From contig WJIR01000314.1 in assembly GCA_014730175.1 (NCBI GenBank), positions 92 to 64,091 on the forward strand: 64,000 bases of DNA, written 5' to 3'. The notes under the pieces were generated by a model. It worked only from the letters and a program-made list of their open reading frames with translations. It had not been told where the DNA came from and made no database searches. The position numbers and the translations under genes were made by a program. Below, piece by piece: positions 785-63,091 of this stretch; within the stretch, counting starts at the first letter, position 1, and each line of letters opens with the position of its first letter. This DNA is from Candidatus Zixiibacteriota bacterium. Lineage in GTDB: Bacteria; Zixibacteria; MSB-5A5; UM-FILTER-46-8.

Positions 785-1093
785 GTGTCCTGTACAATTT
801 ATTATGGTTATTATATCTATAATTCGGGATCGGGGATTGTCTCTTTATTTTATCGATTTAATACAAGACGGGAATAAATCCATCTTTTAAACAGGTGACC
901 GACGGGCGCGACGAAGCATTCTTTTTTGAAGTTTTGAGAAAGTTTCGCTCTCACCCGACGGCTTTGCTCCTCTAGAACGAGCGTAAAAATAGACAACTAA
1001 ATGTGGTTGTCAAGAGGTTTTGTTCCTGTTTTAGATAGTAATATGCATTACAATATACTGGTAATTACGGTAAAAGCCCCCCTTTGTAGTACT

Positions 1094-1405
1094 TTAGCAG
1101 CTACATCCACCGCTGTTGCCGATATTTATCTGAAATCCCTTGCCCCTCAAAGGATCGTCGACATATTCGATTTTGATATCGCCAGCCGGCTTAACCTGTT
1201 CGTAGAGAACAGGATCGATGTATGCGGTTATGCCATTTGATTCTAATTCCTTCAATCCTTCTTTGGACTCATCCAGAGCCATTCCCATACTGGGACCGCC
1301 TCATCCGAATCCGCTGGCGAAGATAATAAGATGTTTGCCTTTAGCTCTATCGCTCTGTAGAACCTTTTGAATTTCTTCGCTGGCTTTGTCTGTTATATTA
1401 ATCAT
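1094..1405 (-). CDS. HesB/IscA-like iron-sulfur cluster assembly protein; candidate selenoprotein with an in-frame TGA (Sec) at 1301..1303
   Basis: The track ORF 1094..1288 (MGMALDE…GKGFQINIGNSGGCSC) is only the C-terminal part. Reading upstream in the same frame through a TGA at 1301-1303 reaches an ATG at 1403-1405 preceded by a strong RBS (AAAGGAGAG). The full product is MINITDKASEEIQKVLQSDRAKGKHLIIFASGFG-U-GGPSMGMALDE…GGCSC (103 aa), i.e. the IscA/HesB fold with the first conserved Cys (GCSG position) replaced by the TGA codon. A small hairpin CCCAGUAUGGG begins 6 nt after the UGA. Confidence 0.55.
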
Positions 1406-1773
1406 TAATAGCTCTCCTTTCCAAACTTAGTTCTAATATCCCCCATTCGTTTATAAGATTATATAAACCGCCATTTGATTCAAAACAAATACAAATTTTA
1501 TAATTGTTCCCTTCGTTCCGAAATCTCGCGGAATAATTAAAGTTTCTAAATCCGTCTGGCTCTACAAATATCATCGACTGAATTTTGACAAAAACAACCT
1601 AAGCCGTTTGAACCGTTTTGTTTTGTACTTGCGTGTGGGAAATTATGTATTATATAGTAAATGGATATCTTCTTAGGGATATTAGATGAAGCCTGATACC
1701 AATTAAATTTGTATCTTTCTCAATGAGGATGGGTTATAGTAGTCTTTAAAATAGCAAATGAAACGGAGGAAAC

Positions 1774-3825
1774 ATGAGAAAATTGGCGGAAAGTGTAGCT
1801 CTGGGGGTGATGGTTGCATTTTTACTGCAGCTTTTCTTCGCCGGAACCTATCTTAATGCGGCTGAAGGAGATAATCAGGATCCGAAAAACAGAATCGGCG
1901 CTCTCGGTTTTGAACCTTCAGAAGAAGAAATTAAACTTTTCGAGGAATTAGATAAGCAGCCGCCTCCGCCGTTGCTGTTGGACGATGAGCGTTGGGATTG
2001 GCGCGAAAATAGCGGCGTTACTCCCGTGAAAAACCAGGGCGATTGCGGTTCCTGCTGGGCATTTGCTGGAGTGGGAGCGTTTGAATCAGCGATTATTATT
2101 GCGGATTCGGTCGAATGGGATTTGTCCGAGCAGCAGGTGGTGGACTGTAACCTGTATGGCGGAAGCTGTAATGGCGGCTCGGCTCATTATGCCTATAATC
2201 TCTTCTTCACCACCGGTGCGGTTGAGGAAGAATGCTATCCATACCGAGCTCAGGATATGAACTGCGGTCAGGATAGTTGTGTTACCATGGTTTTCCTTGA
2301 CGATGCGGAGAGTGTTCCTAACAATGTGGAATCTATCAAAAACTCATTGATTAATGGCCCCGTATCATCGACATTCACTGTTTTCGATGGTTTCCACTGG
2401 GACTGCTATGACGGTCCGGACAATGAACCTTCCAACCATGCAATCGTAATCGTAGGTTGGGATGATAATATGTGCGGTGATGGCGCCTGGATATGCAAAA
2501 ATAGCTGGGGAGCGAGTTGGGGAGACGACGGTTACTTCTATATACCTTATTACTCCTGCGGAATGGGGAGATTTACCCAGAGACCGATTTACAACTCCAA
2601 TTACCCGGTTTTAACTTACAGTCTGGAGAATATTGAGGTTAATGTTGAAGAAGGCGGCCAATCCACCGATATTCTGCAACTGGGAAACACCGGTGAACGC
2701 GCCCTTTATTTCGCTATCGATTTAGCTCCGTCCTCGATTGTTGACTCATTCGGTTATTACTGGCTGCATTCCGATACTACCGGAGGTCCTGTTTACGACT
2801 GGGTTGATATCACCCAAGAAGGTCAGATAATAGAATTTTCGGGAAATCCTTCTTATGGTAATTCCGGTCATCTTCCGCTGGGATTCAATTTCAATTATTA
2901 TGGAAACAACTACAACAGTATTTGTGTCTGCTCGAATGGATGGGCTTCTTTTACCGATAGCACATCCAGTTCCAGCTATGCGCGGCATTTCCCCGAGGAT
3001 GCCGATCCCAATAATGTTATAGCGCCATTCTGGGCAAATCTCGTTCCGAATCCCGACTCCAATGCCAATATCTATTTTTATACCAATAATTCCGATTCGG
3101 CCGTTATATCCTGGGTGGATATCCCGGATGGATTGCATGATGGCAAATATACATTCCAGATCGTATTGGTCAAACCCAATACGGTTGTTCTTCAATATGA
3201 ATCTATGGATCCCAACGGTCCTCTTGACCTGGCTTCCACCGGGATGGAAAATGCTACAGGGACAGTCGGACTCGAGGTGGCTTATCATGAGCCGTTCACC
3301 ACTGACGGCAAGGCAGTGAAATTTATTTTGGGTACTCCACCCGGCGAGTTCGATTGGTTATCAACGGATATCGATGACGGTGTTGTGCCGCTTGGAGGAT
3401 TCCTGGATGTAAGCGTAACATGTGATGCCGGAGACCATCCTGCGGGGATCTATCGCGGTGTGCTTGAATTGTACTGTAACGATCCGTATGCAAAGCATGT
3501 ATATATTCCGGTTAATATGTATGTTGGCGCGGCAACCGTGGATGAAGATGGAGCAATTCCTTACAAAGTATCATTGCAGCAAAACTACCCCAATCCGTTC
3601 AACGCAAGCACGGAGATAACGTATTCGCTAACAACCGGATCCGAGGTCTGTTTGGAAGTTTACAACCTTTTAGGCCAGAAAGTTGAAACGCTAATCGATT
3701 CCAAGCAGAATACCGGATATCATTCGGTCAACTGGGATGCTTCTGAGTATGCATCGGGCATATACCTGTATAAACTTACGGTCAACGATCAGGTGTACAG
3801 AAAGCGTATGACACTGCTGAAATAG
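1774..3825 (+). CDS. secreted papain-family (C1) cysteine peptidase with a T9SS C-terminal sorting domain
   Basis: Has an N-terminal signal peptide and the active-site motif QGDCGSCWAFAGVGAFES (papain Cys box). The C-terminal ~80 aa, LQQNYPNPFNASTEITYSL…GIYLYKLTVNDQVYRKRMTLLK, is a typical Por/T9SS type-A sorting domain. Confidence 0.9.
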   Translation: MRKLAESVALGVMVAFLLQLFFAGTYLNAAEGDNQDPKNRIGALGFEPSEEEIKLFEELDKQPPPPLLLDDERWDWRENSGVTPVKNQGDCGSCWAFAGVGAFESAIIIADSVEWDLSEQQVVDCNLYGGSCNGGSAHYAYNLFFTTGAVEEECYPYRAQDMNCGQDSCVTMVFLDDAESVPNNVESIKNSLINGPVSSTFTVFDGFHWDCYDGPDNEPSNHAIVIVGWDDNMCGDGAWICKNSWGASWGDDGYFYIPYYSCGMGRFTQRPIYNSNYPVLTYSLENIEVNVEEGGQSTDILQLGNTGERALYFAIDLAPSSIVDSFGYYWLHSDTTGGPVYDWVDITQEGQIIEFSGNPSYGNSGHLPLGFNFNYYGNNYNSICVCSNGWASFTDSTSSSSYARHFPEDADPNNVIAPFWANLVPNPDSNANIYFYTNNSDSAVISWVDIPDGLHDGKYTFQIVLVKPNTVVLQYESMDPNGPLDLASTGMENATGTVGLEVAYHEPFTTDGKAVKFILGTPPGEFDWLSTDIDDGVVPLGGFLDVSVTCDAGDHPAGIYRGVLELYCNDPYAKHVYIPVNMYVGAATVDEDGAIPYKVSLQQNYPNPFNASTEITYSLTTGSEVCLEVYNLLGQKVETLIDSKQNTGYHSVNWDASEYASGIYLYKLTVNDQVYRKRMTLLK

Positions 3826-7273: not shown

Positions 7274-9091
7274 ATGGCTCTCACTTATTGCGATGGTAAG
7301 AGACTCAGAAATGTATTGCTTGCCTGCAGCAATTGGCTATCTACCAAAACAGAGGATTTGAACGCTATAAATGTTTTCCCGGTTGCCGATGGTGATACCG
7401 GTACGAATATGGCGGTTACGCTTCGTACCACAGCTTCTGCCGTAGAAAATATGGATAGGGTAGACTTAAGCGATGTAGCGGATACAATGGCATCTTCGTC
7501 TCTACTTGGCGCCCGCGGCAATTCCGGAGTTATACTATCTCAGTATTTAAGGGGTTTTGCGGCGGCTTTGAAGGGGCGGAAGAAAGTCTATGCAGATGAT
7601 CTCGCAATCGCATTTCAAGAGGGAACCAGGTCTGCATACGAGGCTATCGAATCGCCGCGCGAGGGTACCATACTCACGATCTTCCGGGAAACCGGGGAGC
7701 ATTTTAAGAAATGGACCGGTAAGACCAATGATCTTCTGGAGCTTATGGAGTCGTCCCTTGAGAAGGCGAAAAATTCATTAGCGGAGACCAAGTACAAATT
7801 GGAATCTTTGATGGATGCCAACGTCGTCGATGCCGGCGGTCAGGGATTTGTACACATGTTGGAAGCGGTAGTCGGATACATTAAAAACGGAACGATACCT
7901 AAAAGCGAATCGCCCGAATCGCAGTCGACCGAAGTACCGATGCATCATGCCAGGCCTGATAAACGCTTCTGCTGCGAGTTTATGTTAGTAAGTGACAATG
8001 ATAAAGCTAATATAATAAAGGCGAAATTGAGAGAAATGGGTAATTCTCTAATCGTCGCCGCCAGCGAAACGTGTAATAACGATTATCTTCATAAAGTCCA
8101 TATACATGCAGATGAGTATCGAGCGATCGAGTCCACTATCGGTGAATTCGGCAACATAACCCACCGCAAAGTGGACGATATGCTTAAACAACACCGTAGC
8201 ATTACTATGATTAAACCCGGTCGTTCGTCTTCGGTTTCGACTAAAACGGTGCGAATCGTGACGGACTCAACCGCTGATTTGCCGCCCGCAGTTGTCGATG
8301 AGTACGATATATCGGTAGTTCCACTGAAAGTGCTGTTCGGGACGGAAGAGTATGCAGACGGCGTGGATCTAACCCCGGATTCCTTTTTGGAAAAACTCTC
8401 GACTAATAATACATTCCCGAAGACTTCCCAGCCGGCTTCGGAGGAATTCAGGCAGCAGTATGAGACTCTGTTGGAAAGCGGCTCCACGGAAGATGTAGTC
8501 TCAATACACCTTTCATCCAAATTATCCGGCACGTTCAATTCCGCGTTGCAGGGGAGGAAGAATCTATCTTCTCCTGATAGAGTATCGGTATTCGATTCCA
8601 AAACCGCGTCTCTGGGAATGGGGATGATGGTTGTGGAGGCCGCGAGATTGGCTCGAGAAGGCAGGGGCAAGAAGGAGATACTAAATCGTTTGACGGAGAT
8701 ACAAAACAGAAGCAGCATATATTTCACCATTGATACTTTTGAATTCCTTATCAAAGGTGGAAGAGTAGGTAAAGCCAGAGGATTTATCGGCGAGCTGCTT
8801 AATGTTAAGCCGATACTAAAAGTTGTTGATGGCGAGATTGTACCGGTTGACAAGGTTCGTGGCAAGGAGAAACTGGTTGATACGGTCATTGCGCTGCTGA
8901 AGAAGGATATCGAGGATTATAAGAAGGTACGGTTCGCCGTCGGTATGTCTAATGCGGATATAAACGATTTGGTTGATGGATTGCACGCCGAATTCGCAGT
9001 CAAGCCCGAATTAATATTTGATTTAGGTCCGGTAATAGCATCTCATACAGGTCCGGGCGCCTGGGGAGTGTATTACCAAAATGAAAAATAA
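7274..9091 (+). CDS. DAK2-domain (DhaL-like) / DegV-domain fusion protein (YloV-like)
   Basis: The N-terminus has the DGDTGTNMAVTL motif (Dak2/DhaL). The C-terminal half has DegV hallmarks (IVTDSTADLP, GMGMMVVEAARLAREG). Confidence 0.75.
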   Translation: MALTYCDGKRLRNVLLACSNWLSTKTEDLNAINVFPVADGDTGTNMAVTLRTTASAVENMDRVDLSDVADTMASSSLLGARGNSGVILSQYLRGFAAALKGRKKVYADDLAIAFQEGTRSAYEAIESPREGTILTIFRETGEHFKKWTGKTNDLLELMESSLEKAKNSLAETKYKLESLMDANVVDAGGQGFVHMLEAVVGYIKNGTIPKSESPESQSTEVPMHHARPDKRFCCEFMLVSDNDKANIIKAKLREMGNSLIVAASETCNNDYLHKVHIHADEYRAIESTIGEFGNITHRKVDDMLKQHRSITMIKPGRSSSVSTKTVRIVTDSTADLPPAVVDEYDISVVPLKVLFGTEEYADGVDLTPDSFLEKLSTNNTFPKTSQPASEEFRQQYETLLESGSTEDVVSIHLSSKLSGTFNSALQGRKNLSSPDRVSVFDSKTASLGMGMMVVEAARLAREGRGKKEILNRLTEIQNRSSIYFTIDTFEFLIKGGRVGKARGFIGELLNVKPILKVVDGEIVPVDKVRGKEKLVDTVIALLKKDIEDYKKVRFAVGMSNADINDLVDGLHAEFAVKPELIFDLGPVIASHTGPGAWGVYYQNEK

Positions 9092-13359: not shown

Positions 13360-15207
13360 ATGACTAAAAAGAAGCCTGAAGACATTAAAGTAATTTTAGC
13401 CACCGATTGCGGCTCCACTACAACCAAGGCGATTCTAATCGAATATCGAGACGGGGAATACCGTCTCATCGTTCGTGGTGAAGCGCCTACGACGGTCGAA
13501 GCTCCATTCGAGGATGTAACGATGGGAGTGCTGAATGCTATCGCCGAGGTGGAGGAGTTATCGGGAAGAAAAATACTGGATGAAGAACACAGGATAATGT
13601 CGCCGGCAAAAGATAACACCGGCACGGATATCTACATTTCCACATCATCGGCGGGAGGGGGACTGCAGATGATGGTGGCGGGAGTGGTGCGTTCGATGAC
13701 AGCGGAATCAGCCGAACGCGCGGCATTGGGCGCCGGCGCAATCGTGATGGATGTGATAGCTTCCAATGATAAACGTCTGCCCCATCAGCAGATCGAAAGG
13801 ATACGTCATCTCAGACCGGATATGATTCTGCTATCCGGAGGTATCGATGGGGGAACCACCACCCATGTGGCGGAACTCGCTGAACTTATATCCGCTGCGG
13901 ACCCCAAGCCTCGGCTCGGTTCCGGTTACAATCTTCCGGTGATTTACGCCGGTAATAACAAGGCGCGTGAAGCTGTTAAGGAAGCGCTTGAGGAAAAGGT
14001 TGCTCTTGATATCGTCGAAAACATTCGACCGGTGCTTGAAAGGGAAAACCTGCTGCCCGCCCGCGAGAAAATCCACGATCTGTTCATGGAACATGTGATG
14101 GCTCAGGCTCCCGGTTACTCCAAGCTAATGGGATGGGCACACGCTCCGATTATGCCGACTCCCGGCGCGGTTGGTTTGATTATTAAGACTATTGCGGATA
14201 TCGAGAAAATTGACGCTGTCGGTGTGGATATAGGCGGCGCTACGACTGACGTCTTCTCGGTCTTTCAGGGAATATTCAATCGGACGGTTTCCGCTAATTT
14301 GGGAATGAGTTATTCCGTATCCAATGTCTTCGCCGAAGCTGGATTGGAAAATGTTATGAGGTGGGTGCCGTTTGATCTGGACGAACGTGATCTTCGTAAT
14401 CGAGTCAAAAACAAAATGATAAGACCTACCACTATTCCGCAGTCTCTCAGCGAACTGGTTTTTGAACAAGCTATCGCCAAAGAAGCTTTGAGGCTGGCGT
14501 TTATTCAGCACAAGAATTTCGCTACCGTGTTAAAGGGGATTCAGCAGCAGAGAACCATCGCAGACGCTTTCGATCAAACAGTCGGCGGACAGACCCTGGT
14601 TGATATGATGTCCCTGAACATGTTAATCGGCTCGGGTGGTGTGTTGTCACACGCGCCCCGCAGACAGCAGTCCGCTCTGATGATGATGGACGCTTTCCTT
14701 CCGGAGGGGATTACCCGCCTGGCGGTTGATTCGATTTTTATGATGCCCCAGCTGGGTGTACTCTCCACGATTCACGAGCAGGCAGCAACCGAGGTGTTCA
14801 ACAAGGACTGTCTGATTCATCTGGGAACCTGTATAGCGCCGACCGGCGAGTTCAAGGGCGACGGCACCGTGCTTACATATAAGTTTAAGCTTCCCGATGG
14901 AACCGTGGAGGAAGGTGAGCTTTCCTCCGGAGAAATTAAACTGATAAAGGCCGGAATCGACGAAAAATCCTCGCTTCCCGTAAAAGCGAAAGCTTCTCTG
15001 GAACCGGCAAAATCACTCGACTTAGGTGAAGGAAAAGGACACAGGACCGAAACCGAAGTTTCCGGCGGCGTGGTTGGGATCATACTCGATGGGCGCGGAC
15101 GCCCCTTTAAGCTGCCTGAGGATGAGAAGACGCGGGTAACAAAACTCAAGGAATGGATGCATGCCCTGGATATCTATGATAAGGATTTACTCGAGGAACT
15201 GGCATAA
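13360..15207 (+). CDS. ASKHA-superfamily ATPase, GlmL/MutL-like (glutamate-mutase accessory protein family)
   Basis: The N-terminus VILATDCGSTTTKAILIE matches the D-x-G-S-T-x-T-K phosphate-1 motif of GlmL-type acetate/sugar-kinase-fold proteins. At 615 aa it is longer than classical GlmL. Confidence 0.45.
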   Translation: MTKKKPEDIKVILATDCGSTTTKAILIEYRDGEYRLIVRGEAPTTVEAPFEDVTMGVLNAIAEVEELSGRKILDEEHRIMSPAKDNTGTDIYISTSSAGGGLQMMVAGVVRSMTAESAERAALGAGAIVMDVIASNDKRLPHQQIERIRHLRPDMILLSGGIDGGTTTHVAELAELISAADPKPRLGSGYNLPVIYAGNNKAREAVKEALEEKVALDIVENIRPVLERENLLPAREKIHDLFMEHVMAQAPGYSKLMGWAHAPIMPTPGAVGLIIKTIADIEKIDAVGVDIGGATTDVFSVFQGIFNRTVSANLGMSYSVSNVFAEAGLENVMRWVPFDLDERDLRNRVKNKMIRPTTIPQSLSELVFEQAIAKEALRLAFIQHKNFATVLKGIQQQRTIADAFDQTVGGQTLVDMMSLNMLIGSGGVLSHAPRRQQSALMMMDAFLPEGITRLAVDSIFMMPQLGVLSTIHEQAATEVFNKDCLIHLGTCIAPTGEFKGDGTVLTYKFKLPDGTVEEGELSSGEIKLIKAGIDEKSSLPVKAKASLEPAKSLDLGEGKGHRTETEVSGGVVGIILDGRGRPFKLPEDEKTRVTKLKEWMHALDIYDKDLLEELA

Positions 15208-25934: not shown

Positions 25935-27257
25935 CTACTTCACCAGCAACATCCGTTTGGTCTCGAAATAACCGGGGGTCATTAGCCGGTATAGATATTC
26001 ACCGCTTGCCAGCCCATTAGCTCTAAAGTTCAAAGTATACGAACCGGCATCGAGAATTCCATCATAGACTTTACATACCTCTTTGCCGAGGATATTATAC
26101 AGCCTTATACTGACGGGAGAGCGCCTGGGAACATTAAGTCCTATGGTGGTTGATTCATTGAATGGATTGGGATAATTTTGTCGTAAGCTAAATCCTGTCG
26201 AAATCGAAGCATCCGCCGATGGATTAGAACGACTCCAGATCGAACCGCCCTCCGGTCTCTCATTCAATTCTATAATCTCAACTTGATCCAAATCCGAGGT
26301 GCCCAATCCACGCTCTTCCGCTCGCTGTAGCGTCGGTTCGGCCATTGACGCCGAGAAAGTGGGATCATGTTTTTCGAGTAGATTGGCGCAATATGCGTCA
26401 GTTGCCACAATATCCCCGCAGATTATAATTCTGTCCGTATTGACCAGTACAGTCTCTTCATGAATCACAGGCCCAAATATCGTCATCAGGACTCTGGCGT
26501 CAACTATATTCAACTCGGGTCTGATCAATCCCGCTATTTCCGCCACCTCCTCCCTTAGAAACTGGCTGTGGTTGGCATGTATAAATAGCCGGGTGCCGGT
26601 TCTATTTGAGCCGGTGACTGCTCCGACATGGTTTTTGATAGCACAAGTCAAGTCAGCCTGGAAATGCTTTTTTAGATTGCAGAGGTTTATGATTATTGGC
26701 GCATCATAAACCTCCGAATATACCTCGAAATCTGGTCTTTCCTGATCCCAGGAAGGATGTCTTACATTGTAGGGATTCGAAAAAGCTATCAACTCCCCGC
26801 CTGCTTGCGGAACGATCTCATCCAAATTGAGGAAGGGGTAAACGATTTGCGGCGGTCTCCATCCCTGGTCGCCAACATATACTGTACCGTTAGTTGTGCT
26901 TACTACCGACATTATCAATTCGGTGAGAAAATCGGGATCGGTCGATGCCGGGTAGTACTGATCAGTCAGAAAATTAGGTTTTATTAGAACATCCTGATCC
27001 GAGTTAATCAGCCGACCCAATCCACCTATCGCGGTTAAGCCGGTAGCGAGCATATTATTGATGTCAGTGCCTTTGACGCATACCAATACAGGTTTACCCT
27101 CAGGTGTCACAAAGGGATTGGGCAAGCCGACTCTGGGATAAAGGGAAGGATTCAACTTACTTAGAGCTCCAACCGGATTCGCTAAAGTGAAAGCCGAAGC
27201 CATCCCGCCGGATAGCGACTTTATAAATGTTCGTCTGGATTGCGATGAATCATTCAA
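25935..27257 (-). CDS. DUF362-domain protein with an N-terminal twin-arginine (Tat) signal and a T9SS C-terminal sorting domain
   Basis: N-terminus MNDSSQSRRTFIKSLSGGMASAFTLA (SRRxFIK Tat motif); DUF362-like core (…LIKPNF…, …AIKNHVGAV…R…H); the C-terminus LRQNYPNPFNESTTIGL…GEYLYRLMTPGYFETKRMLLVK is a type-A T9SS sorting domain. Confidence 0.6.
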   Translation of the reverse strand: MNDSSQSRRTFIKSLSGGMASAFTLANPVGALSKLNPSLYPRVGLPNPFVTPEGKPVLVCVKGTDINNMLATGLTAIGGLGRLINSDQDVLIKPNFLTDQYYPASTDPDFLTELIMSVVSTTNGTVYVGDQGWRPPQIVYPFLNLDEIVPQAGGELIAFSNPYNVRHPSWDQERPDFEVYSEVYDAPIIINLCNLKKHFQADLTCAIKNHVGAVTGSNRTGTRLFIHANHSQFLREEVAEIAGLIRPELNIVDARVLMTIFGPVIHEETVLVNTDRIIICGDIVATDAYCANLLEKHDPTFSASMAEPTLQRAEERGLGTSDLDQVEIIELNERPEGGSIWSRSNPSADASISTGFSLRQNYPNPFNESTTIGLNVPRRSPVSIRLYNILGKEVCKVYDGILDAGSYTLNFRANGLASGEYLYRLMTPGYFETKRMLLVK

Positions 27258-27342
27258 GTTTGCACCTGCATTATTCTAATTACCGTACACATAGGAACCC
27301 ATTATACAGTTTGAATGTTAATTAGGTCCCGGAGACCAACAT

Positions 27343-28671
27343 TTATTTAACCAACGTCATTGATTTCGTTTCCATTATTCCCGGCGCCGATAAACGATAG
27401 AAATATTTACCGCTGGGTAAGCCGTTGGCGTTGAAGGTTACCGTGTGGGAACCGGCGTGATAAATATCATGTGTTATTGTCGTAACCTCCTTTCCTAACA
27501 TATCATATAGTCTGATATCAATGGGCGCGCTCCGACGCGTCTTGAACCTGATAGACGTGGTTGCATTAAATGGATTCGGATAATTCTGCTCCAGAGCAAT
27601 TGCATCGGGTACGCCGTTCAAATCCGAGTAATGCGGCTTTGAGGATATAGAACCGCCTATAGGTTGTTCGGGAAGTTCGATAATCTCAACATCATCCAAA
27701 CTCGATACACCCAATCCCAGCTCTATCGCCCTATCTATTGTTGGTTCTATCATCTCCGCATCGAAAGTAGGATCGTATTCTTGCATCACCTGTGCGCAAT
27801 ACAAGTCGGTCGCAATTATATCGCCACAGAGAATAAGTAAGTTGGCATCGGCGAGAATTGTGTCCTCATTTGGAGTAGGTCCATAAATTGTCATGATGGT
27901 GCGGGCATCCACAATACATAACTCCGGATTAACCAATCCTGCTAATTCCGCTATATCCTGAAAAAGATGTTCATCGTTGTTCTCATGTATATATGAACGC
28001 GTACCTACTCGATATGGACCATTGACGGTCCCAACATGATTTTTCAGGCAGCATGTCAATTTGGCGTGTTCGCGGCCATGTCTCTTTAGCGTCGGCATAT
28101 TGATAACGATCGATGAATCATATATATCGCTCCAAACTTCAAAATCCGGCTTCTGAGGATGCCATGATAGCCTTCTGACATTATAAGTTTGTTCAAACAT
28201 CACCGGCACACCTCCGGCCTGACTTACAATCCCTTCGACATCAAGGTAGGGATATACTATATCGGCAGGGAGATATCCCTGATCCCCTACCTTAATTGAG
28301 CCCGAAGATACCTGCTTTATTACTTGTATCACCTCGACAATCGCTTCCAGCGACGTTGTTGTGGGATAGTACTGGTCAACCACAAAATTCGGATTTATGA
28401 GACAATCCTGATTTCCGTCGAAAAGCAAATCCAATCCGCCCAATGCACTTAAACCGGTATGCAGCATGGCTCTTAAATCAGTGCCTTTGACCGCTGCTAA
28501 AATCGGCTTGCCTTCATTGTTTACAAACGGATTCGGGATTCGCTCCCGTGGTCCCACGGTTTTACCGCTTGCGGCAAAAATATAGCTGTAAGGATGAAAT
28601 GCAATTAGAGATGCCGCTCCTCCGGACAGGATTTTCAGAAAATCCCTCCTGGAATTAGATTTGTTCCACAT
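27343..28671 (-). CDS. DUF362-domain protein with a Tat signal and T9SS sorting domain (tandem paralog of the gene at 25935..27257)
   Basis: N-terminus MWNKSNSRRDFLKILSGGAASLIAF (a textbook SRRxFLK motif) and the same DUF362 core; the C-terminus LEQNYPNPFNATTSIRF…GKYFYRLSAPGIMETKSMTLVK is a T9SS sorting domain. Roughly 45-50% identical to the neighbouring gene by eye. Confidence 0.6.
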   Translation of the reverse strand: MWNKSNSRRDFLKILSGGAASLIAFHPYSYIFAASGKTVGPRERIPNPFVNNEGKPILAAVKGTDLRAMLHTGLSALGGLDLLFDGNQDCLINPNFVVDQYYPTTTSLEAIVEVIQVIKQVSSGSIKVGDQGYLPADIVYPYLDVEGIVSQAGGVPVMFEQTYNVRRLSWHPQKPDFEVWSDIYDSSIVINMPTLKRHGREHAKLTCCLKNHVGTVNGPYRVGTRSYIHENNDEHLFQDIAELAGLVNPELCIVDARTIMTIYGPTPNEDTILADANLLILCGDIIATDLYCAQVMQEYDPTFDAEMIEPTIDRAIELGLGVSSLDDVEIIELPEQPIGGSISSKPHYSDLNGVPDAIALEQNYPNPFNATTSIRFKTRRSAPIDIRLYDMLGKEVTTITHDIYHAGSHTVTFNANGLPSGKYFYRLSAPGIMETKSMTLVK

Positions 28672-60734: not shown

Positions 60735-61814
60735 ATGAAGAAAGCTAAAGTAGCGGTTTTAAAAACAAAACCGGATTCAGTAATTGAGGATCATATAAAA
60801 CTCGGGAGGATGGCGGGGATTAGCGAATCTTTGGAAAAAGGTAAAACCACCATCCTCAAGGATAATATATCCTGGCATTTTCCTTTCCCGGGAGCAAATA
60901 CCACCCCATGGCAGTTGGAAGGCTGTATCAGGGCGCTGCAGGACGAAGGATACGCCGATCTGGTTGATGTCCATAATGATACCGTAGTGACCGATCCTTA
61001 TAAAGGCGAAAAGCTGAATAAATACGATGTCGTCTACAAGAAATATGATATACCGGTTAAGTATAATTTCAAGAAAGAGGATATCAGGTGGGAACGGTAT
61101 GAACCCGAAGGCGAGATGATCGCGCTGAAGGAAATATATCCTAAGGGAATTTATATACCGGAATTCTTCAGGGATAAGAACATCGTCCACCTGCCCACAG
61201 TGAAATCGCATATCTATACCACCATGACCGGCGCTATGAAAAACGCCTTCGGGGGATTGCTAAATACCCGCCGCCATTATACCCACAGCGTAATCCACGA
61301 AACATTGGTGGACTTACTGACAATCCAAAAGGAGATTCATAGCGGTTTATTCTGTTTCATGGATGGCACCACCGCCGCCTCCGGTCCCGGACCCCGCACC
61401 ATGACTCCGGTGCAAAAGGATGTGATTATGGCATCGGGCGATATGGTAGCGATCGATGCAGTATCGGCTAAAATCATGGGATTCGACCCGATGGAGATTA
61501 AATGTATCCGGCTTGCGCACGACAGGGGATTGGGGATCGGGAATTTCGATGAGATTGAAATCGTGGGCGAGGATGTATCCGATTGGAATTTCAATTTTAC
61601 GGTAGGCGATAATATGCCGTCATTGGTGGGAGACCTGCTCTGGTATTCGCCGCTGAAAGTACTGCAGAAGCTGTTTTTCCACACTCCTTTAGTATACATA
61701 TTTGTTTTCGCTTCGTTCTTTTATCACGATTATCTCTGGTATCCGATAAAAGGACGGCAGATAGTCAATGACTGGCTGAAAACCGAGTGGGGGCAGTTGT
61801 TCGAGAGGTATTAA
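60735..61814 (+). CDS. DUF362-domain protein (cytoplasmic paralog; no signal peptide or sorting domain)
   Basis: …ILKDNISWHFPFP…, …VKSHIYTTMTGAMKNAFGGLLNTRRHYTHSVIHETL…, …GFDPMEIKCIRLAHDRGLG… is the same conserved core as the two Tat/T9SS genes at 25935..28671. Confidence 0.55.
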   Translation: MKKAKVAVLKTKPDSVIEDHIKLGRMAGISESLEKGKTTILKDNISWHFPFPGANTTPWQLEGCIRALQDEGYADLVDVHNDTVVTDPYKGEKLNKYDVVYKKYDIPVKYNFKKEDIRWERYEPEGEMIALKEIYPKGIYIPEFFRDKNIVHLPTVKSHIYTTMTGAMKNAFGGLLNTRRHYTHSVIHETLVDLLTIQKEIHSGLFCFMDGTTAASGPGPRTMTPVQKDVIMASGDMVAIDAVSAKIMGFDPMEIKCIRLAHDRGLGIGNFDEIEIVGEDVSDWNFNFTVGDNMPSLVGDLLWYSPLKVLQKLFFHTPLVYIFVFASFFYHDYLWYPIKGRQIVNDWLKTEWGQLFERY

Positions 61815-61909: not shown

Positions 61910-62266
61910 ATGATTCAAATTCTTTACATGATAGGCGCGATACTGCTCAATGTTTGTGGACATTCCTTCCTCAAAGCCGGGATGACGCGGGTGGGCCCTA
62001 TAACCGGAAGTTTTCTACATTATGCGTATAATGCGGTTACGACTCCGCTGGTTATATTGGGGCTGTTCAGCTATGTGGCATCGGTAAGTTTATATATGCT
62101 GGTACTCTCCAAAACCGACCTTTCTTTTGCATACCCGCTTTTGATGAGTATCGGGTACGTATTGATTGTGCTGGTTTCATTTTTAATATTCAAAGAGCCA
62201 TTTTCCGCATACAAATGGGTCGGAATCGTATTGATTTTAATCGGGGTGATATTGGTGGGGAGGTAA
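61910..62266 (+). CDS. small 4-TM SMR/EamA-like transporter (ArnE/ArnF-like flippase-subunit architecture)
   Basis: 118 aa with four hydrophobic helices and a small-multidrug-resistance-like fold (…FLKAGMTRVG…, …FAYPLLMSIGYVLIVLVSFLIFKE…). Confidence 0.45.
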   Translation: MIQILYMIGAILLNVCGHSFLKAGMTRVGPITGSFLHYAYNAVTTPLVILGLFSYVASVSLYMLVLSKTDLSFAYPLLMSIGYVLIVLVSFLIFKEPFSAYKWVGIVLILIGVILVGR

Positions 62267-62376
62267 TAAGCAAAATATTCACTAATTATTCATCATATAA
62301 TAATTCTCCACAGGAACACGAGGTAGTTTCCTGATTATAAACGTCAAACCAGAAGCCGCTGTGAATTAGTCTGATA

Positions 62377-62709
62377 ATGGTCAAGGATAAGAAAATACGA
62401 AATCTGATAGAATCGCTGGCGAAGAAGATTGTTGATGCTTATGATCCGCTTAAGATTATTTTGTTCGGATCATATTCCTACGGCAATCCCGACAAAGACA
62501 GCGATATCGATCTTCTAATCATTAAAGAGACTTCCGAAAGACCGATTGATAGGCGTGTGGCGGTTAGCAGTATAATTTCTGATCGTCAGCTTCGGACTCC
62601 TGTTGAGCCGATTGTTCTTACTCCGAACGAGTTAGAGAATAGAATGAGGATCGGTGACCAATTCGTACAGGAGATTTTGGATAAAGGGGATGTCCTGTAT
62701 GAAAAGTGA
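62377..62709 (+). CDS. nucleotidyltransferase-domain antitoxin (MNT-type) of a type II/VII toxin-antitoxin pair
   Basis: KIILFGSYSYGNPDKDSDIDLLII is the polymerase-beta-like nucleotidyltransferase GSx9-13Dx(D/E) motif. Confidence 0.75.
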   Translation: MVKDKKIRNLIESLAKKIVDAYDPLKIILFGSYSYGNPDKDSDIDLLIIKETSERPIDRRVAVSSIISDRQLRTPVEPIVLTPNELENRMRIGDQFVQEILDKGDVLYEK

Positions 62710-63091
62710 GGAATCCAGATATTTCGGTGACTGGTTCAGAATCGGCGCAAAGGAAATCGAGCGAGCCAAAAGATTATTGGAAGACGGCGATCTTGATGCA
62801 GCAGGATTTAATATACAGCAAGCGGTTGAGAAATATATAAAAGGTTACCTTCTGTCCAAAGGATGGGAGCTTCGTAGGATTCACAATCTTGATATACTTT
62901 TAAACGATGCCATGGATTACGAACCTTCGCTCGATGAATATCGTCAGGATTGCATTAAAATAACTCATTATTATGTCGAGGATCGATATCCCTTCACGGT
63001 AGCTTCCGAGTTAACTAAAGAGGAAATCAAGGAGTCGCTGCAAGTCGCTAAGAAGTTAATCAAGAAAATCGTCTCTTTAACTGAAGAATGA
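62654..63091 (+). CDS. HEPN-domain toxin partner of the upstream nucleotidyltransferase
   Basis: An alpha-helical protein with the R-x4-HN motif (ELRRIHNLDIL). The likely true start is the Met at about 62690-62699, overlapping the nucleotidyltransferase stop by a few nucleotides. Confidence 0.7.
   Translation: MTNSYRRFWIKGMSCMKSEESRYFGDWFRIGAKEIERAKRLLEDGDLDAAGFNIQQAVEKYIKGYLLSKGWELRRIHNLDILLNDAMDYEPSLDEYRQDCIKITHYYVEDRYPFTVASELTKEEIKESLQVAKKLIKKIVSLTEE

What the first reader, a model, noticed from the sequence alone, without database searches (positions are those of the whole stretch)
1094..1413. HesB/IscA-like gene whose full-length reading requires an in-frame UGA: a selenoprotein candidate
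An ordinary ORF caller reports only a 64-aa C-terminal fragment (1094..1288). Upstream in the same frame, across a single TGA at 1301-1303, lies a well-formed 34-codon N-terminus (MINITDKASEEIQKVLQSDRAKGKHLIIFASGFG) with a strong RBS (AAAGGAGAG) and an ATG at 1403-1405. The TGA falls exactly where IscA/HesB proteins carry their first cluster-ligating Cys (G-C-x-G), and the other two Cys are kept at the C-terminus (GGCSC). That is the architecture of the known 'HesB-like selenoprotein' family (TIGR01911). A small hairpin, CCCAGUAUGGG with GU in the loop, starts 6 nt after the UGA and is a possible minimal bacterial SECIS. If this is right, the organism uses Sec decoding and may encode other selenoproteins that a standard annotation would mis-call.
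Basis: partly seen in the sequence, partly recalled or inferred. Interest (0 to 1): 0.7.

Follow-up and report, generated by a model that had tools for sequence, protein, structure and literature searches.

The report
Mis-annotated HesB/IscA-like selenoprotein gene
This is a small iron-sulfur-carrier-like gene in which an apparent stop codon (UGA) almost certainly encodes selenocysteine, so the database entry is a truncated fragment; this kind of selenoprotein is already known, and the gene is a new, divergent member from a Zixibacteria genome.

Summary
On the minus strand an ATG (1405) opens a 103-codon frame ending at TAA (1094), interrupted only by TGA at 1303-1301. GenBank lists just the 64-aa tail as a hypothetical protein of a Zixibacteria MAG. 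All 33 close relatives (40-93% identity) of 35 related loci fetched have TGA at the same codon (G-x-G-U-x-G-P). Ten database proteins and three loci have Cys there. The 34 upstream codons evolve as coding sequence. A 17-nt hairpin, its loop 25 nt after the UGA, stays paired in 96.6% of cells. It has compensatory changes and almost no synonymous variation (Leu CTG 30/30, Glu GAG 29/29). Seven of eight Cys-type genes lack it. It meets the loop, stem, loop-G and spacing criteria of the published bacterial SECIS model. The protein has the IscA/HesB fold, with Sec35, Cys101 and Cys103 at the ligand positions. It scores below the cut-offs of both curated selenoprotein models (NF038090 55.8/85; TIGR01911 38.3/66.35), so it is a sister clade with a homologous SECIS. 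Sec machinery is absent from this contig and could not be checked genome-wide. Verdict: a correct call, a new member of a known kind, of modest interest.

The parts
1094..1405 (-). Complete coding sequence of the HesB/IscA-like selenoprotein: 103 codons plus stop, with Sec at codon 35
   Evidence: sequence and translation; end-to-end match to NF038090 (1-103 vs 1-101 of 101); the same frame is conserved across the TGA in 33 related loci.
1412..1420 (-). Ribosome-binding site AAAGGAGAG, 6 nt upstream of the ATG
   Evidence: purine-rich AGGA/GAGG-type motifs lie at the same distance in most homologues, while the 30 nt upstream are otherwise unconserved (33% identity).
1301..1303 (-). In-frame UGA, proposed selenocysteine codon (Sec35), within the motif G-F-G-U-G-G-P
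   Evidence: TGA at the aligned codon in L001-L014, L017-L021 and L023-L036. Cys in L015, L016, L022 and in 10 database proteins. Aligns with the GGGCSG cysteine of PDB 2apn and 1nwb.
1283..1295 (-).
   Evidence: fold; 81% of cells paired, with only the CCC/GGG core invariant. Loop begins 10 nt after the UGA, below the 16-37 nt of the bSECIS model. Cys-type genes keep 2-4 of 5 pairs. However, Pro is CCC in 25/30 TGA-type genes against 2/8 Cys-type genes.
1265..1281 (-). Hairpin 2, the proposed SECIS: U-GGCUC-UGGAU-GAGUC-C. The 5 bp stem is 1280..1276 with 1270..1266 in the window (6 bp in most homologues). The loop is 1275..1271, with an invariant G at 1274.
   Evidence: 96.6% of cells paired in 29 distinct sequences; pair types GU17/AU9/GC2/UA1 and UA28/CG1; synonymous freeze (GCT 18/19, CTG 30/30, GAG 29/29); lost in 7 of 8 Cys-type genes; same hairpin in the same register in the NF038090 member L045; meets the bSECIS loop, stem, G and spacing criteria.
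1097..1105 (-). Codons for Cys101-Ser102-Cys103, the C-terminal C-x-C ligand pair of A-type carriers
   Evidence: C103 is nearly invariant in the clade. The C-x-C aligns with the C-G-C of PDB 2apn.
992..1011 (-). Terminator-like hairpin GACAAC-N8-GTTGTC followed by a T-run, about 80 nt after the stop. It suggests a monocistronic unit.
   Evidence: This is a consensus scan only: 3 sites were found in the region against 1.5 expected from shuffles.

Best explanation
Window 1405..1094 (minus strand) is one gene for a 103-residue IscA/HesB-type (A-type iron-sulfur carrier fold) selenoprotein. Translation starts at the ATG at 1405. At the UGA (1303..1301) the ribosome inserts selenocysteine instead of terminating. 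This is directed by a small mRNA hairpin inside the coding sequence (1281..1265, loop UGGAU beginning 25 nt after the UGA), which would recruit SelB carrying Sec-tRNA(Sec). The product carries Sec35 where ordinary A-type carriers have their first cluster-ligating cysteine, and keeps the C-terminal Cys101-x-Cys103 pair. It most likely binds and hands on iron or an Fe-S cluster through a Se/S/S ligand set. Shown here: the frame, the conserved UGA, the Sec/Cys pairing, the coding nature of both halves, the RNA-level constraint on the hairpin and its absence from Cys-type genes, and the fold class. Inferred: that SelB, SelA, SelD and tRNA-Sec exist in this genome, that Sec is what is inserted, and the Fe-S function. 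The function of HesB-like selenoproteins is still unknown even where the protein has been shown by 75Se labelling (PMC11097638).
For: (1) In-frame TGA at the same codon in all 33 close relatives (40-93% identity) among the 35 related loci from different Zixibacteria- and Ignavibacteria-labelled MAGs and metagenomes. (2) Cys at that column in L015, L016, L022 and 10 full-length database proteins. About 40 database entries are C-terminal fragments of 63-75 aa, and 10 carry W there, which is TGA translated with code 4. (3) The upstream 34 codons are coding: identity by codon position is 0.62/0.73/0.41, and an ATG or GTG lies exactly 34 codons before the TGA in 28 of 29. (4) Hairpin 2 is 96.6% paired with compensatory changes; sliding the register drops pairing to 52% or less. 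Synonymous sites in its codons are almost invariant, whereas the same amino acids elsewhere in the gene use 2-6 codons (Fisher p 1e-7 to 1e-12, not phylogenetically corrected). (5) Control: 7 of 8 Cys-type genes lack hairpin 2. L040 encodes M-A-L-D-E with GCC UUA GAC GAA. One gene (L039) keeps it next to UGC, like the remnant SECIS described for the D. hafniense HesB-like protein (PMC1794560). (6) Hairpin 2 fits the published bSECIS model: 5-nt loop, 5-6 bp stem, G at loop position 2, 25-nt spacing. (7) The same hairpin, in the same register, occurs in a TGA-type member of curated family NF038090. (8) Family and fold: end-to-end match to NF038090, UxGP motif, clade profile vs PDB 2apn/1nwb at E about 1e-9 with the Sec column on their Cys, and a model of a Cys-type relative that matches IscA, SufA and DsrR structures. 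(9) TGA is a normal stop elsewhere in the window.
Against: No selA, selB, selD or tRNA-Sec in the 64-kb window or in any related locus, and the rest of the MAG could not be searched. Nor do the Pfam scans of the window's ORFs show any recognisable SelA or SelB domain. In the window's own sequence the minimum-energy fold (-15.5 kcal/mol) uses the 5' arm of hairpin 2 in an extended hairpin 1. The conserved two-hairpin fold is -11.2 kcal/mol, and hairpin 2 alone is only -5.7 kcal/mol, weaker than the -7.5 of the bSECIS model. No Rfam family matches. The protein scores below every curated cut-off. The covariation rests on few independent events, and part of the hairpin's conservation is confounded by the conserved peptide M-A/T-L-D-E-S.
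Confidence: 0.9

Rival explanations
1. Pseudogene or sequencing/assembly error: a TGC or TGT Cys codon mutated or was misread as TGA, and the gene is dead or the stop is an artefact.
For: TGA is one substitution away from TGC or TGT. The sequence comes from a metagenome-assembled genome. GenBank annotates only a 64-aa hypothetical protein.
Against: The same TGA occurs in 33 independently assembled loci spanning 40-93% protein identity, with both halves under purifying selection. A TGA-specific RNA hairpin is also conserved.
Confidence: 0.01
2. The UGA is decoded, but not as selenocysteine: either a reassigned genetic code (UGA = Trp or Gly) or SECIS-independent near-cognate read-through inserting Trp or Cys, with the hairpin acting as a generic read-through stimulator.
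For: Sec machinery was not demonstrated. Some pipelines translated these genes with W at the site. Hairpin 2 alone is weak in the window (-5.7 kcal/mol).
Against: TGA ends 8 of 38 long ORFs in the window, and the window is densely coding under code 11. The homologous residue is Cys at a metal-ligand position, the classic Sec/Cys pair. The hairpin has the loop G and spacing of bacterial SECIS elements. The gene's closest curated family is a selenoprotein family, and HesB-like protein was confirmed as a selenoprotein by 75Se labelling in M. maripaludis (PMC11097638).
Confidence: 0.05
3. Two separate products: translation terminates at the UGA to give a 34-aa peptide, and the 64-aa C-terminal part is made independently from the AUG at 1288, as annotated.
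For: In the window two AUG codons follow the UGA closely (codons 40 and 42). Gene callers predict the 64-aa ORF.
Against: The downstream Met is not conserved: Met at +7 is Leu in 5 of 30, and position +5 is usually Leu, so there is no conserved restart. Neither half is a complete IscA domain on its own. The full-length read aligns end to end with IscA-type proteins and structures. Full-length Cys-type homologues exist as single ORFs.
Confidence: 0.03

Closest known systems
NCBIfam NF038090 (IscA_HesB_Se, IscA/HesB family protein with Sec-containing members)
   Same: Best-scoring family, matched end to end (1-103 vs 1-101 of 101, E 4.6e-15). Same length, same G-U/C-x-G-P-x-L-G-M-A-L-D-E segment, same C-terminal C-x-C. 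A TGA-type true member (L045 = P0075, 107 bits) has the same two hairpins in the same register after the UGA.
   Different: The window protein and all 14 clade members tested score below the 85-bit cut-off. The window protein scores 55.8, the best member's E-value is 3.5e-17, and two Cys-type relatives outside the 14 (P0004, P0013) score 52.3 and 48.5. Identity to true members is only 35-39%. The clade has its own signature (ESNGITAYIDP block, longer Cys- and Gly-rich tails) and is found in Zixibacteria- and Ignavibacteria-labelled MAGs.
HesB-like selenoprotein family (TIGR01911; Zhang et al. 2006, PMC1794560; 2026 review PMC13188914)
   Same: A single Sec in a UxGP motif at the position of the first IscA cysteine. 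Sec/Cys pairs occur within the family, and Sec-to-Cys conversions leave remnant SECIS-like hairpins, as seen here in L039.
   Different: The TIGR01911 score is 38.3 against a cut-off of 66.35. Published members are mostly from Deltaproteobacteria, Clostridia and methanogens. No Zixibacteria member was found in the searchable literature.
A-type iron-sulfur carriers IscA/SufA/ErpA (Pfam PF01521; PDB 1x0g, 1r94, 2d2a, 2apn, 1nwb)
   Same: Same fold for a Cys-type clade member (Foldseek probability 1.0, TM 0.55-0.67). The three ligand positions align, the first with GGGCSG and the last two with C-G-C.
   Different: Sec replaces the first Cys. The following residues are G-P rather than G-F/L. The Pfam score is 23.2, below the gathering threshold of 26.3. 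The gene is not next to isc, suf or nif genes.
Bacterial SECIS consensus (bSECISearch model; E. coli fdhF type)
   Same: A hairpin within the coding sequence immediately downstream of the UGA, with a small apical loop, G followed by G at loop positions 2-3, and 25-nt spacing.
   Different: The stem is very short (5-6 bp) with no lower stem. It is preceded by a second small hairpin (CCC/GGG) that may stack on it. Its energy alone is -5.7 to -9.2 kcal/mol, mostly weaker than the model's -7.5. No Rfam model covers it.

Membership tests
HesB-like selenoprotein (TIGR01911, UxGP) | In-frame UGA aligned with Cys in homologues (Sec/Cys pair) | tested here: met
   TGA in 33 related loci plus the window; Cys in L015, L016, L022 and 10 database proteins at the same column.
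HesB-like selenoprotein (TIGR01911, UxGP) | Sec within a UxGP motif | tested here: met
   The window reads U-G-G-P. The motif is as listed in PMC13188914 Table 1. G37 and P38 are invariant in the clade.
HesB-like selenoprotein (TIGR01911, UxGP) | HMM score at or above the curated cut-off (66.35 bits) | tested here: not met
   38.3 bits with C substituted for U. All 14 clade members hit the model but weakly, best E 4e-12.
HesB-like selenoprotein (TIGR01911, UxGP) | Sec-decoding machinery (selA, selB, selD, tRNA-Sec) in the same genome | not testable with these tools
   None in the 64-kb window or in the flanks of the 36 related loci held at that point.
HesB-like selenoprotein (TIGR01911, UxGP) | Selenium actually incorporated (75Se labelling or mass spectrometry) | not testable with these tools
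   Shown only for the M. maripaludis homologue (PMC11097638).
NCBIfam NF038090 IscA_HesB_Se | HMM score at or above the curated cut-off (85 bits) | tested here: not met
   55.8 bits for the window protein, although the match is end to end. Cys-type clade members P0004 and P0013 score 52.3 and 48.5. True members P0065, P0069 and P0075 score 107-115.
NCBIfam NF038090 IscA_HesB_Se | Same recoding hairpin downstream of the UGA as in true members | tested here: met
   L045 (P0075): UGA...GCCC-N6-GGGC..GGCUC-UGGAC-GAGCC, in the same register as the window.
A-type Fe-S carrier (IscA/SufA/ErpA, PF01521) | Pfam gathering score (26.3 bits) | tested here: not met
   23.2 bits, covering residues 2-65 only. 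A profile of the clade does reach IscA-type PDB chains at E about 1e-9.
A-type Fe-S carrier (IscA/SufA/ErpA, PF01521) | IscA fold | tested here: met
   AlphaFold model of the 49%-identical Cys-type relative P0004 (pLDDT 79.7). The top 10 Foldseek PDB hits include IscA, SufA, HI1723, Aq_1857 and DsrR.
A-type Fe-S carrier (IscA/SufA/ErpA, PF01521) | Three conserved ligand residues, C...C-x-C | tested here: met
   U35, C101 and C103. The alignment to 2apn places U/C on GGGCSG and the tail on C-G-C. Spatial proximity could not be judged, because the C-terminal tail of the model has pLDDT below 50.
A-type Fe-S carrier (IscA/SufA/ErpA, PF01521) | Binds and transfers Fe or an Fe-S cluster | not testable with these tools
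   Needs biochemistry. There are no isc, suf or nif neighbours to lend context.
Bacterial SECIS (bSECISearch consensus) | 3-9 nt apical loop on a 4-16 bp upper stem | tested here: met
   Hairpin 2 has a 5-nt loop (UGGAU) and 5 bp in the window, 6 bp in most homologues.
Bacterial SECIS (bSECISearch consensus) | G in the first two loop positions, usually followed by G or U | tested here: met
   The loop is U-G-G-A-U. The G at loop position 2 is the synonymous third base of Leu CTG and is invariant in 30/30.
Bacterial SECIS (bSECISearch consensus) | 16-37 nt between the UGA and the apical loop | tested here: met
25 nt for hairpin 2.
Bacterial SECIS (bSECISearch consensus) | Free energy of -7.5 kcal/mol or lower | tested here: inconclusive
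   Hairpin 2 alone is -5.7 kcal/mol in the window, with a mean of -6.7 and a range of -3.6 to -9.2 across homologues. The two-hairpin fold is -11.2 and the MFE of the 48-nt segment is -15.5, but with a different pairing. The result depends on which segment the criterion is applied to.
Bacterial SECIS (bSECISearch consensus) | Binds SelB and is required for read-through | not testable with these tools
   Needs a reporter or binding assay.

The most novel reading that the evidence does not exclude
The window's gene represents an uncurated, Sec-dominant clade of A-type carrier-like proteins in Zixibacteria and related FCB lineages. About 50 of 60 protein clusters at 90% identity carry TGA, and the Cys forms look derived, one with a remnant SECIS. 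On this reading, selenium at the first ligand position is the selected ancestral state of the clade rather than an occasional variant, and the phylum has a Sec-decoding trait that the searchable literature does not report. The clade would then be a compact natural system (103 aa, 17-nt SECIS) for asking what a selenolate ligand does in Fe-S cluster or iron handling.
Probability: 0.35. Interest if true: 0.45.

Novelty: new member of a known kind. Interest (0 to 1): 0.3.

Why it matters
Practically, the public annotation is wrong. The gene is recorded as a 64-aa hypothetical protein, and dozens of relatives appear in databases as fragments or with a spurious Trp. The two curated selenoprotein models miss the whole clade because of their cut-offs, so lowering the cut-off or adding a model would fix many records. 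Biologically, the gene implies that this Zixibacteria organism decodes UGA as Sec, so other selenoprotein genes in its genome are probably mis-called too. It also extends the HesB-like selenoprotein kind to another phylum, with a very small and clearly delimited SECIS. It does not change how recoding or Fe-S carriers are understood. The function of HesB-like selenoproteins remains unknown.

Tried and rejected
(1) Alternative genetic code (UGA = Trp or Gly): rejected, because TGA terminates 8 of 38 long ORFs and the window is densely coding under code 11. Its spacing is 10 nt, its loop is not conserved, and it pairs to a similar degree in Cys-type genes. An accessory role is kept open because of the Pro CCC bias. 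(3) Rfam, at gathering thresholds and in a permissive scan of 1050-1450: no SECIS or other relevant family. (4) Looking up the source contig through the exact 64-aa product: not on record. It was not re-run, because the word-indexed profile search and the two DNA scans already gave enough relatives. (6) Sec machinery: tblastn of E. coli SelA, SelB and SelD against the window and all loci gave no hits at E up to 1e-3. ARAGORN found only ordinary tRNAs. Pfam annotation of the window's long ORFs found only ordinary, non-sel genes. (7) Other selenoprotein genes in the window: TGA-split ORF pairs lying in gaps between long ORFs translate to junk. (8) Ligand geometry from a predicted structure: not obtainable, because the C-terminal tail has pLDDT below 50. 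(9) Literature on Sec use in Zixibacteria: nothing relevant was found.
Full report
OBSERVATION. On the minus strand, an ATG at 1405..1403 follows AAAGGAGAG (1420..1412). It opens a frame that runs to TAA at 1096..1094 and is interrupted only by TGA at 1303..1301, which is codon 35. A mechanical ORF list splits this frame into a 34-aa and a 64-aa ORF. The 64-aa piece is what GenBank holds: hypothetical protein GF315_14320 of a candidate division Zixibacteria MAG, on a 64,399-base contig. The window is therefore essentially that whole contig.

IS THE TGA REAL AND CONSERVED? One scan of 185,579 species genomes and one of JGI metagenomes, using a profile of the read-through protein, returned 35 related loci. 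In all 33 close relatives (40-93% protein identity) the aligned codon is TGA, in the motif G-x-G-*-[GSAN]-G-P. These come from different Zixibacteria- and Ignavibacteria-labelled MAGs and from unbinned contigs. L022 has Cys at that codon, as does the distant L015 (31% identity). So does L016, the contig that encodes database protein P0002.

A profile search of 5.8 billion predicted proteins gave a bimodal picture. About 40 clusters are C-terminal fragments of 63-75 aa, which is what a gene caller produces when it stops at TGA. Ten 'full-length' clusters carry W at the site; P0010 matches the translation of L033, which has TGA there, so these are code-4 translations of TGA. Ten clusters have a genuine Cys.

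TGA is an ordinary stop in this window, ending 8 of 38 long ORFs, and the window is densely coding under the standard code. Sequencing error, pseudogene and reassigned code are therefore all excluded as explanations.

IS THE UPSTREAM PART CODING? Among 29 distinct TGA-type genes, mean pairwise identity in the 34 upstream codons is 0.62, 0.73 and 0.41 at codon positions 1, 2 and 3. The 30 nt before the start show 0.33. An ATG or GTG lies exactly 34 codons before the TGA in 28 of the 29, generally preceded by a purine-rich Shine-Dalgarno motif. The Met that starts the annotated 64-aa fragment is not conserved: it is Leu in 5 of 30. The C-terminal half is therefore not an independent gene.

THE RECODING SIGNAL. 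Two small hairpins follow the UGA.

Only its CCC/GGG core, from the Pro and Gly codons, is invariant, and 81% of cells are paired. Its loop sequence varies between homologues. The loop starts 10 nt after the UGA, and Cys-type genes keep 2-4 of its 5 pairs.

Hairpin 2 (1281..1265, U-GGCUC-UGGAU-GAGUC-C) stays paired in 96.6% of cells across 29 distinct sequences. One pair takes four standard forms (GU 17, AU 9, GC 2, UA 1) and another has a double change (UA 28, CG 1). Sliding the 3' partner by one to three columns drops pairing to between 27% and 52%.

The strongest evidence comes from synonymous sites:
- Leu +9 is CTG in 30/30 genes, while other Leu columns in the same genes use four to six codons.
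- Glu +11 is GAG in 29/29, against GAA 13 / GAG 7 and GAA 25 / GAG 4 at two other Glu columns.
- Ala +8 is GCT in 18/19, while Ala +26 uses all four codons.
Fisher p values range from 1e-7 to 1e-12 and are not corrected for phylogeny.

The control is the Cys-type genes, and seven of eight have lost hairpin 2 (1-3 of 6 pairs). The loss occurs even where the peptide is unchanged: L040 encodes M-A-L-D-E as AUG GCC UUA GAC GAA. One gene, L039, retains a perfect hairpin next to UGC. Zhang et al. described the same kind of remnant SECIS for the D. hafniense HesB-like protein (PMC1794560).

The published bacterial SECIS model requires a 3-9 nt loop, a 4-16 bp stem, G in the first two loop positions, 16-37 nt of spacing and an MFE of -7.5 kcal/mol or lower (PMC13188914). 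Hairpin 2 meets the first four: a 5-nt loop, 5-6 bp, an invariant G at loop position 2 followed by G, and 25 nt of spacing. The energy criterion is inconclusive. Hairpin 2 alone is -5.7 kcal/mol in the window, and the two-hairpin fold is -11.2 kcal/mol. The MFE of the window's segment is -15.5 kcal/mol, but that fold pairs the 5' arm of hairpin 2 into an extended hairpin 1 that homologues do not conserve. Hairpin 1 fails the spacing criterion. It may still contribute, because Pro +3 is CCC in 25/30 TGA-type genes against 2/8 Cys-type genes. Rfam has no matching family.

WHAT THE PROTEIN IS. With C in place of U, the 103-aa product matches NCBIfam NF038090 (IscA_HesB_Se) end to end at 55.8 bits, below its cut-off of 85. 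It scores 38.3 against a cut-off of 66.35 on TIGR01911 (HesB-like selenoprotein), and 23.2 against 26.3 on Pfam PF01521. All 14 clade members tested hit NF038090 best, with E-values no better than 3.5e-17. More distant relatives (P0065, P0069 and the TGA-type P0075) pass the cut-off at 107-115 bits. The window's gene therefore sits in a sister clade just outside the curated family.

That sister relationship is real at the RNA level too. L045, the gene for P0075, has UGA followed by the same two hairpins in the same register (GGCUC-UGGAC-GAGCC). The Sec motif U-G-G-P is the UxGP listed for HesB-like selenoproteins.

A profile of the clade reaches the IscA-type structures 2apn and 1nwb at E about 1e-9. 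The Sec/Cys column falls on their GGGCSG cysteine, and for 2apn the C-terminal C-x-C falls on its C-G-C. An AlphaFold model of the 49%-identical Cys-type relative P0004 has mean pLDDT 79.7. Its top hits include IscA (among them the [2Fe-2S]-bound 1x0g), SufA, HI1723, Aq_1857 and DsrR. The C-terminal tail of the model has low confidence, so the geometry of the ligand triad could not be examined.

CONTEXT. The gene is divergent from a secreted papain-family peptidase (1774-3825) and upstream of a VanZ-like gene (784-401). A terminator-like hairpin lies about 80 nt after its stop. The rest of the contig holds genes for translation (Pth, ribosomal proteins S6 and L9), lipid A synthesis (LpxA, LpxB, LpxC) and regulation (sigma-54, HPr kinase). 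It also carries T9SS-sorted proteins and a TonB-dependent receptor. There are no isc, suf or nif genes, no sel genes and no tRNA-Sec. The flanks of the 36 related loci held at that point contain none either. No other TGA-interrupted gene is evident in the window.

MECHANISM, WITH STATUS OF EACH STEP. Shown: a single ORF across a conserved UGA; a Sec/Cys pair at the first ligand position of an IscA-fold protein; and an RNA hairpin under selection only in TGA-type genes, with bSECIS-like loop, G and spacing. Inferred from the established bacterial pathway (SelD, SelA, tRNA-Sec, SelB): SelB carrying Sec-tRNA(Sec) binds hairpin 2 and delivers Sec at codon 35. Inferred from family membership: the product binds Fe or an Fe-S cluster through Sec35, Cys101 and Cys103, probably as a dimer. 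The function of HesB-like selenoproteins is not known, even in M. maripaludis, where the protein was shown by 75Se labelling and a disruption mutant had no nitrogen-fixation defect (PMC11097638).

COMPARISON AND NOVELTY. HesB-like proteins have been a recognised prokaryotic selenoprotein family since the mid-2000s, with 11 members in Table 1 of Zhang et al. 2006, and they have curated HMMs. This gene has the same architecture, the same motif and a homologous SECIS. It differs in falling below both curated cut-offs, in its lineage and in being mis-annotated. I could find no report of Sec use in Zixibacteria in the searchable literature. It is a new member of a known kind. Whether the genome has Sec machinery remains open.

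VERDICT. Confidence that this is a Sec-encoding HesB/IscA-like gene is about 0.9. Interest is 0.3: it is useful for annotation and as a pointer to a Sec-decoding trait in this phylum, but it would not surprise a specialist.

Noticed in passing
L039:601-939 (ENA ERZ2433807 contig; protein P0004): A Cys-type (UGC) member of the clade retains a perfect hairpin 2 (UGACUC-UGGAU-GAGUCA, 6/6 pairs). This looks like a recent Sec-to-Cys conversion with a remnant SECIS.
   Followed up: partly
Database proteins P0003, P0006, P0008-P0010, P0012, P0015, P0018, P0019, P0021, P0073-P0075: These 'full-length' predicted proteins carry Trp at the Sec position because the source pipelines translated TGA with genetic code 4 on short contigs. 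This systematic artefact hides selenoproteins as W-containing proteins.
   Followed up: partly
L004:1318-1394, L006:5503-5578, L011:1532-1606, L013:5468-5543, L014:5466-5540, L019:1775-1850, L025:855-930, L028:2961-3035, L036:5397-5470: In at least nine related loci a tRNA-His(GUG) gene lies about 70-410 nt (mostly 140-200 nt) downstream of the HesB-like gene. The window lacks this synteny: a VanZ-like gene follows instead.
   Followed up: no
window 1774-3825 (+): A 683-aa papain-family (C1) cysteine peptidase with a T9SS C-terminal sorting domain, divergently oriented from the selenoprotein gene.
   Followed up: partly
window 25935-28671 (-) and 60735-61814 (+): Three DUF362 proteins. Two are tandem paralogues carrying T9SS sorting tails, and the third has no tail.
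   Followed up: no
window 62365-63091 (+): Overlapping small genes for a minimal nucleotidyltransferase (PF01909) and a HEPN-domain protein (PF05168), a typical MNT/HEPN toxin-antitoxin pair. A small SMR/EamA-like transporter ORF lies just upstream, at 61910-62266.
   Followed up: partly
window 1303-1276 (-): In the window, in L001 and in L046, the bases GAG-GC / GAGCC at and just after the UGA can pair with GGCUC, the 5' arm of hairpin 2. This gives an alternative extended hairpin that competes with the conserved SECIS fold (-15.5 vs -11.2 kcal/mol in the window). Most homologues have UGA-AGC and do not conserve it.
   Followed up: partly
window 13360-15207 (+) and 7274-9091 (+): A 615-aa protein matching Pfam 'MutL protein' PF13941 over its full length, and a fused FakA-like Dak2/DegV protein of 605 aa. 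Both are unrelated to the finding.
   Followed up: no
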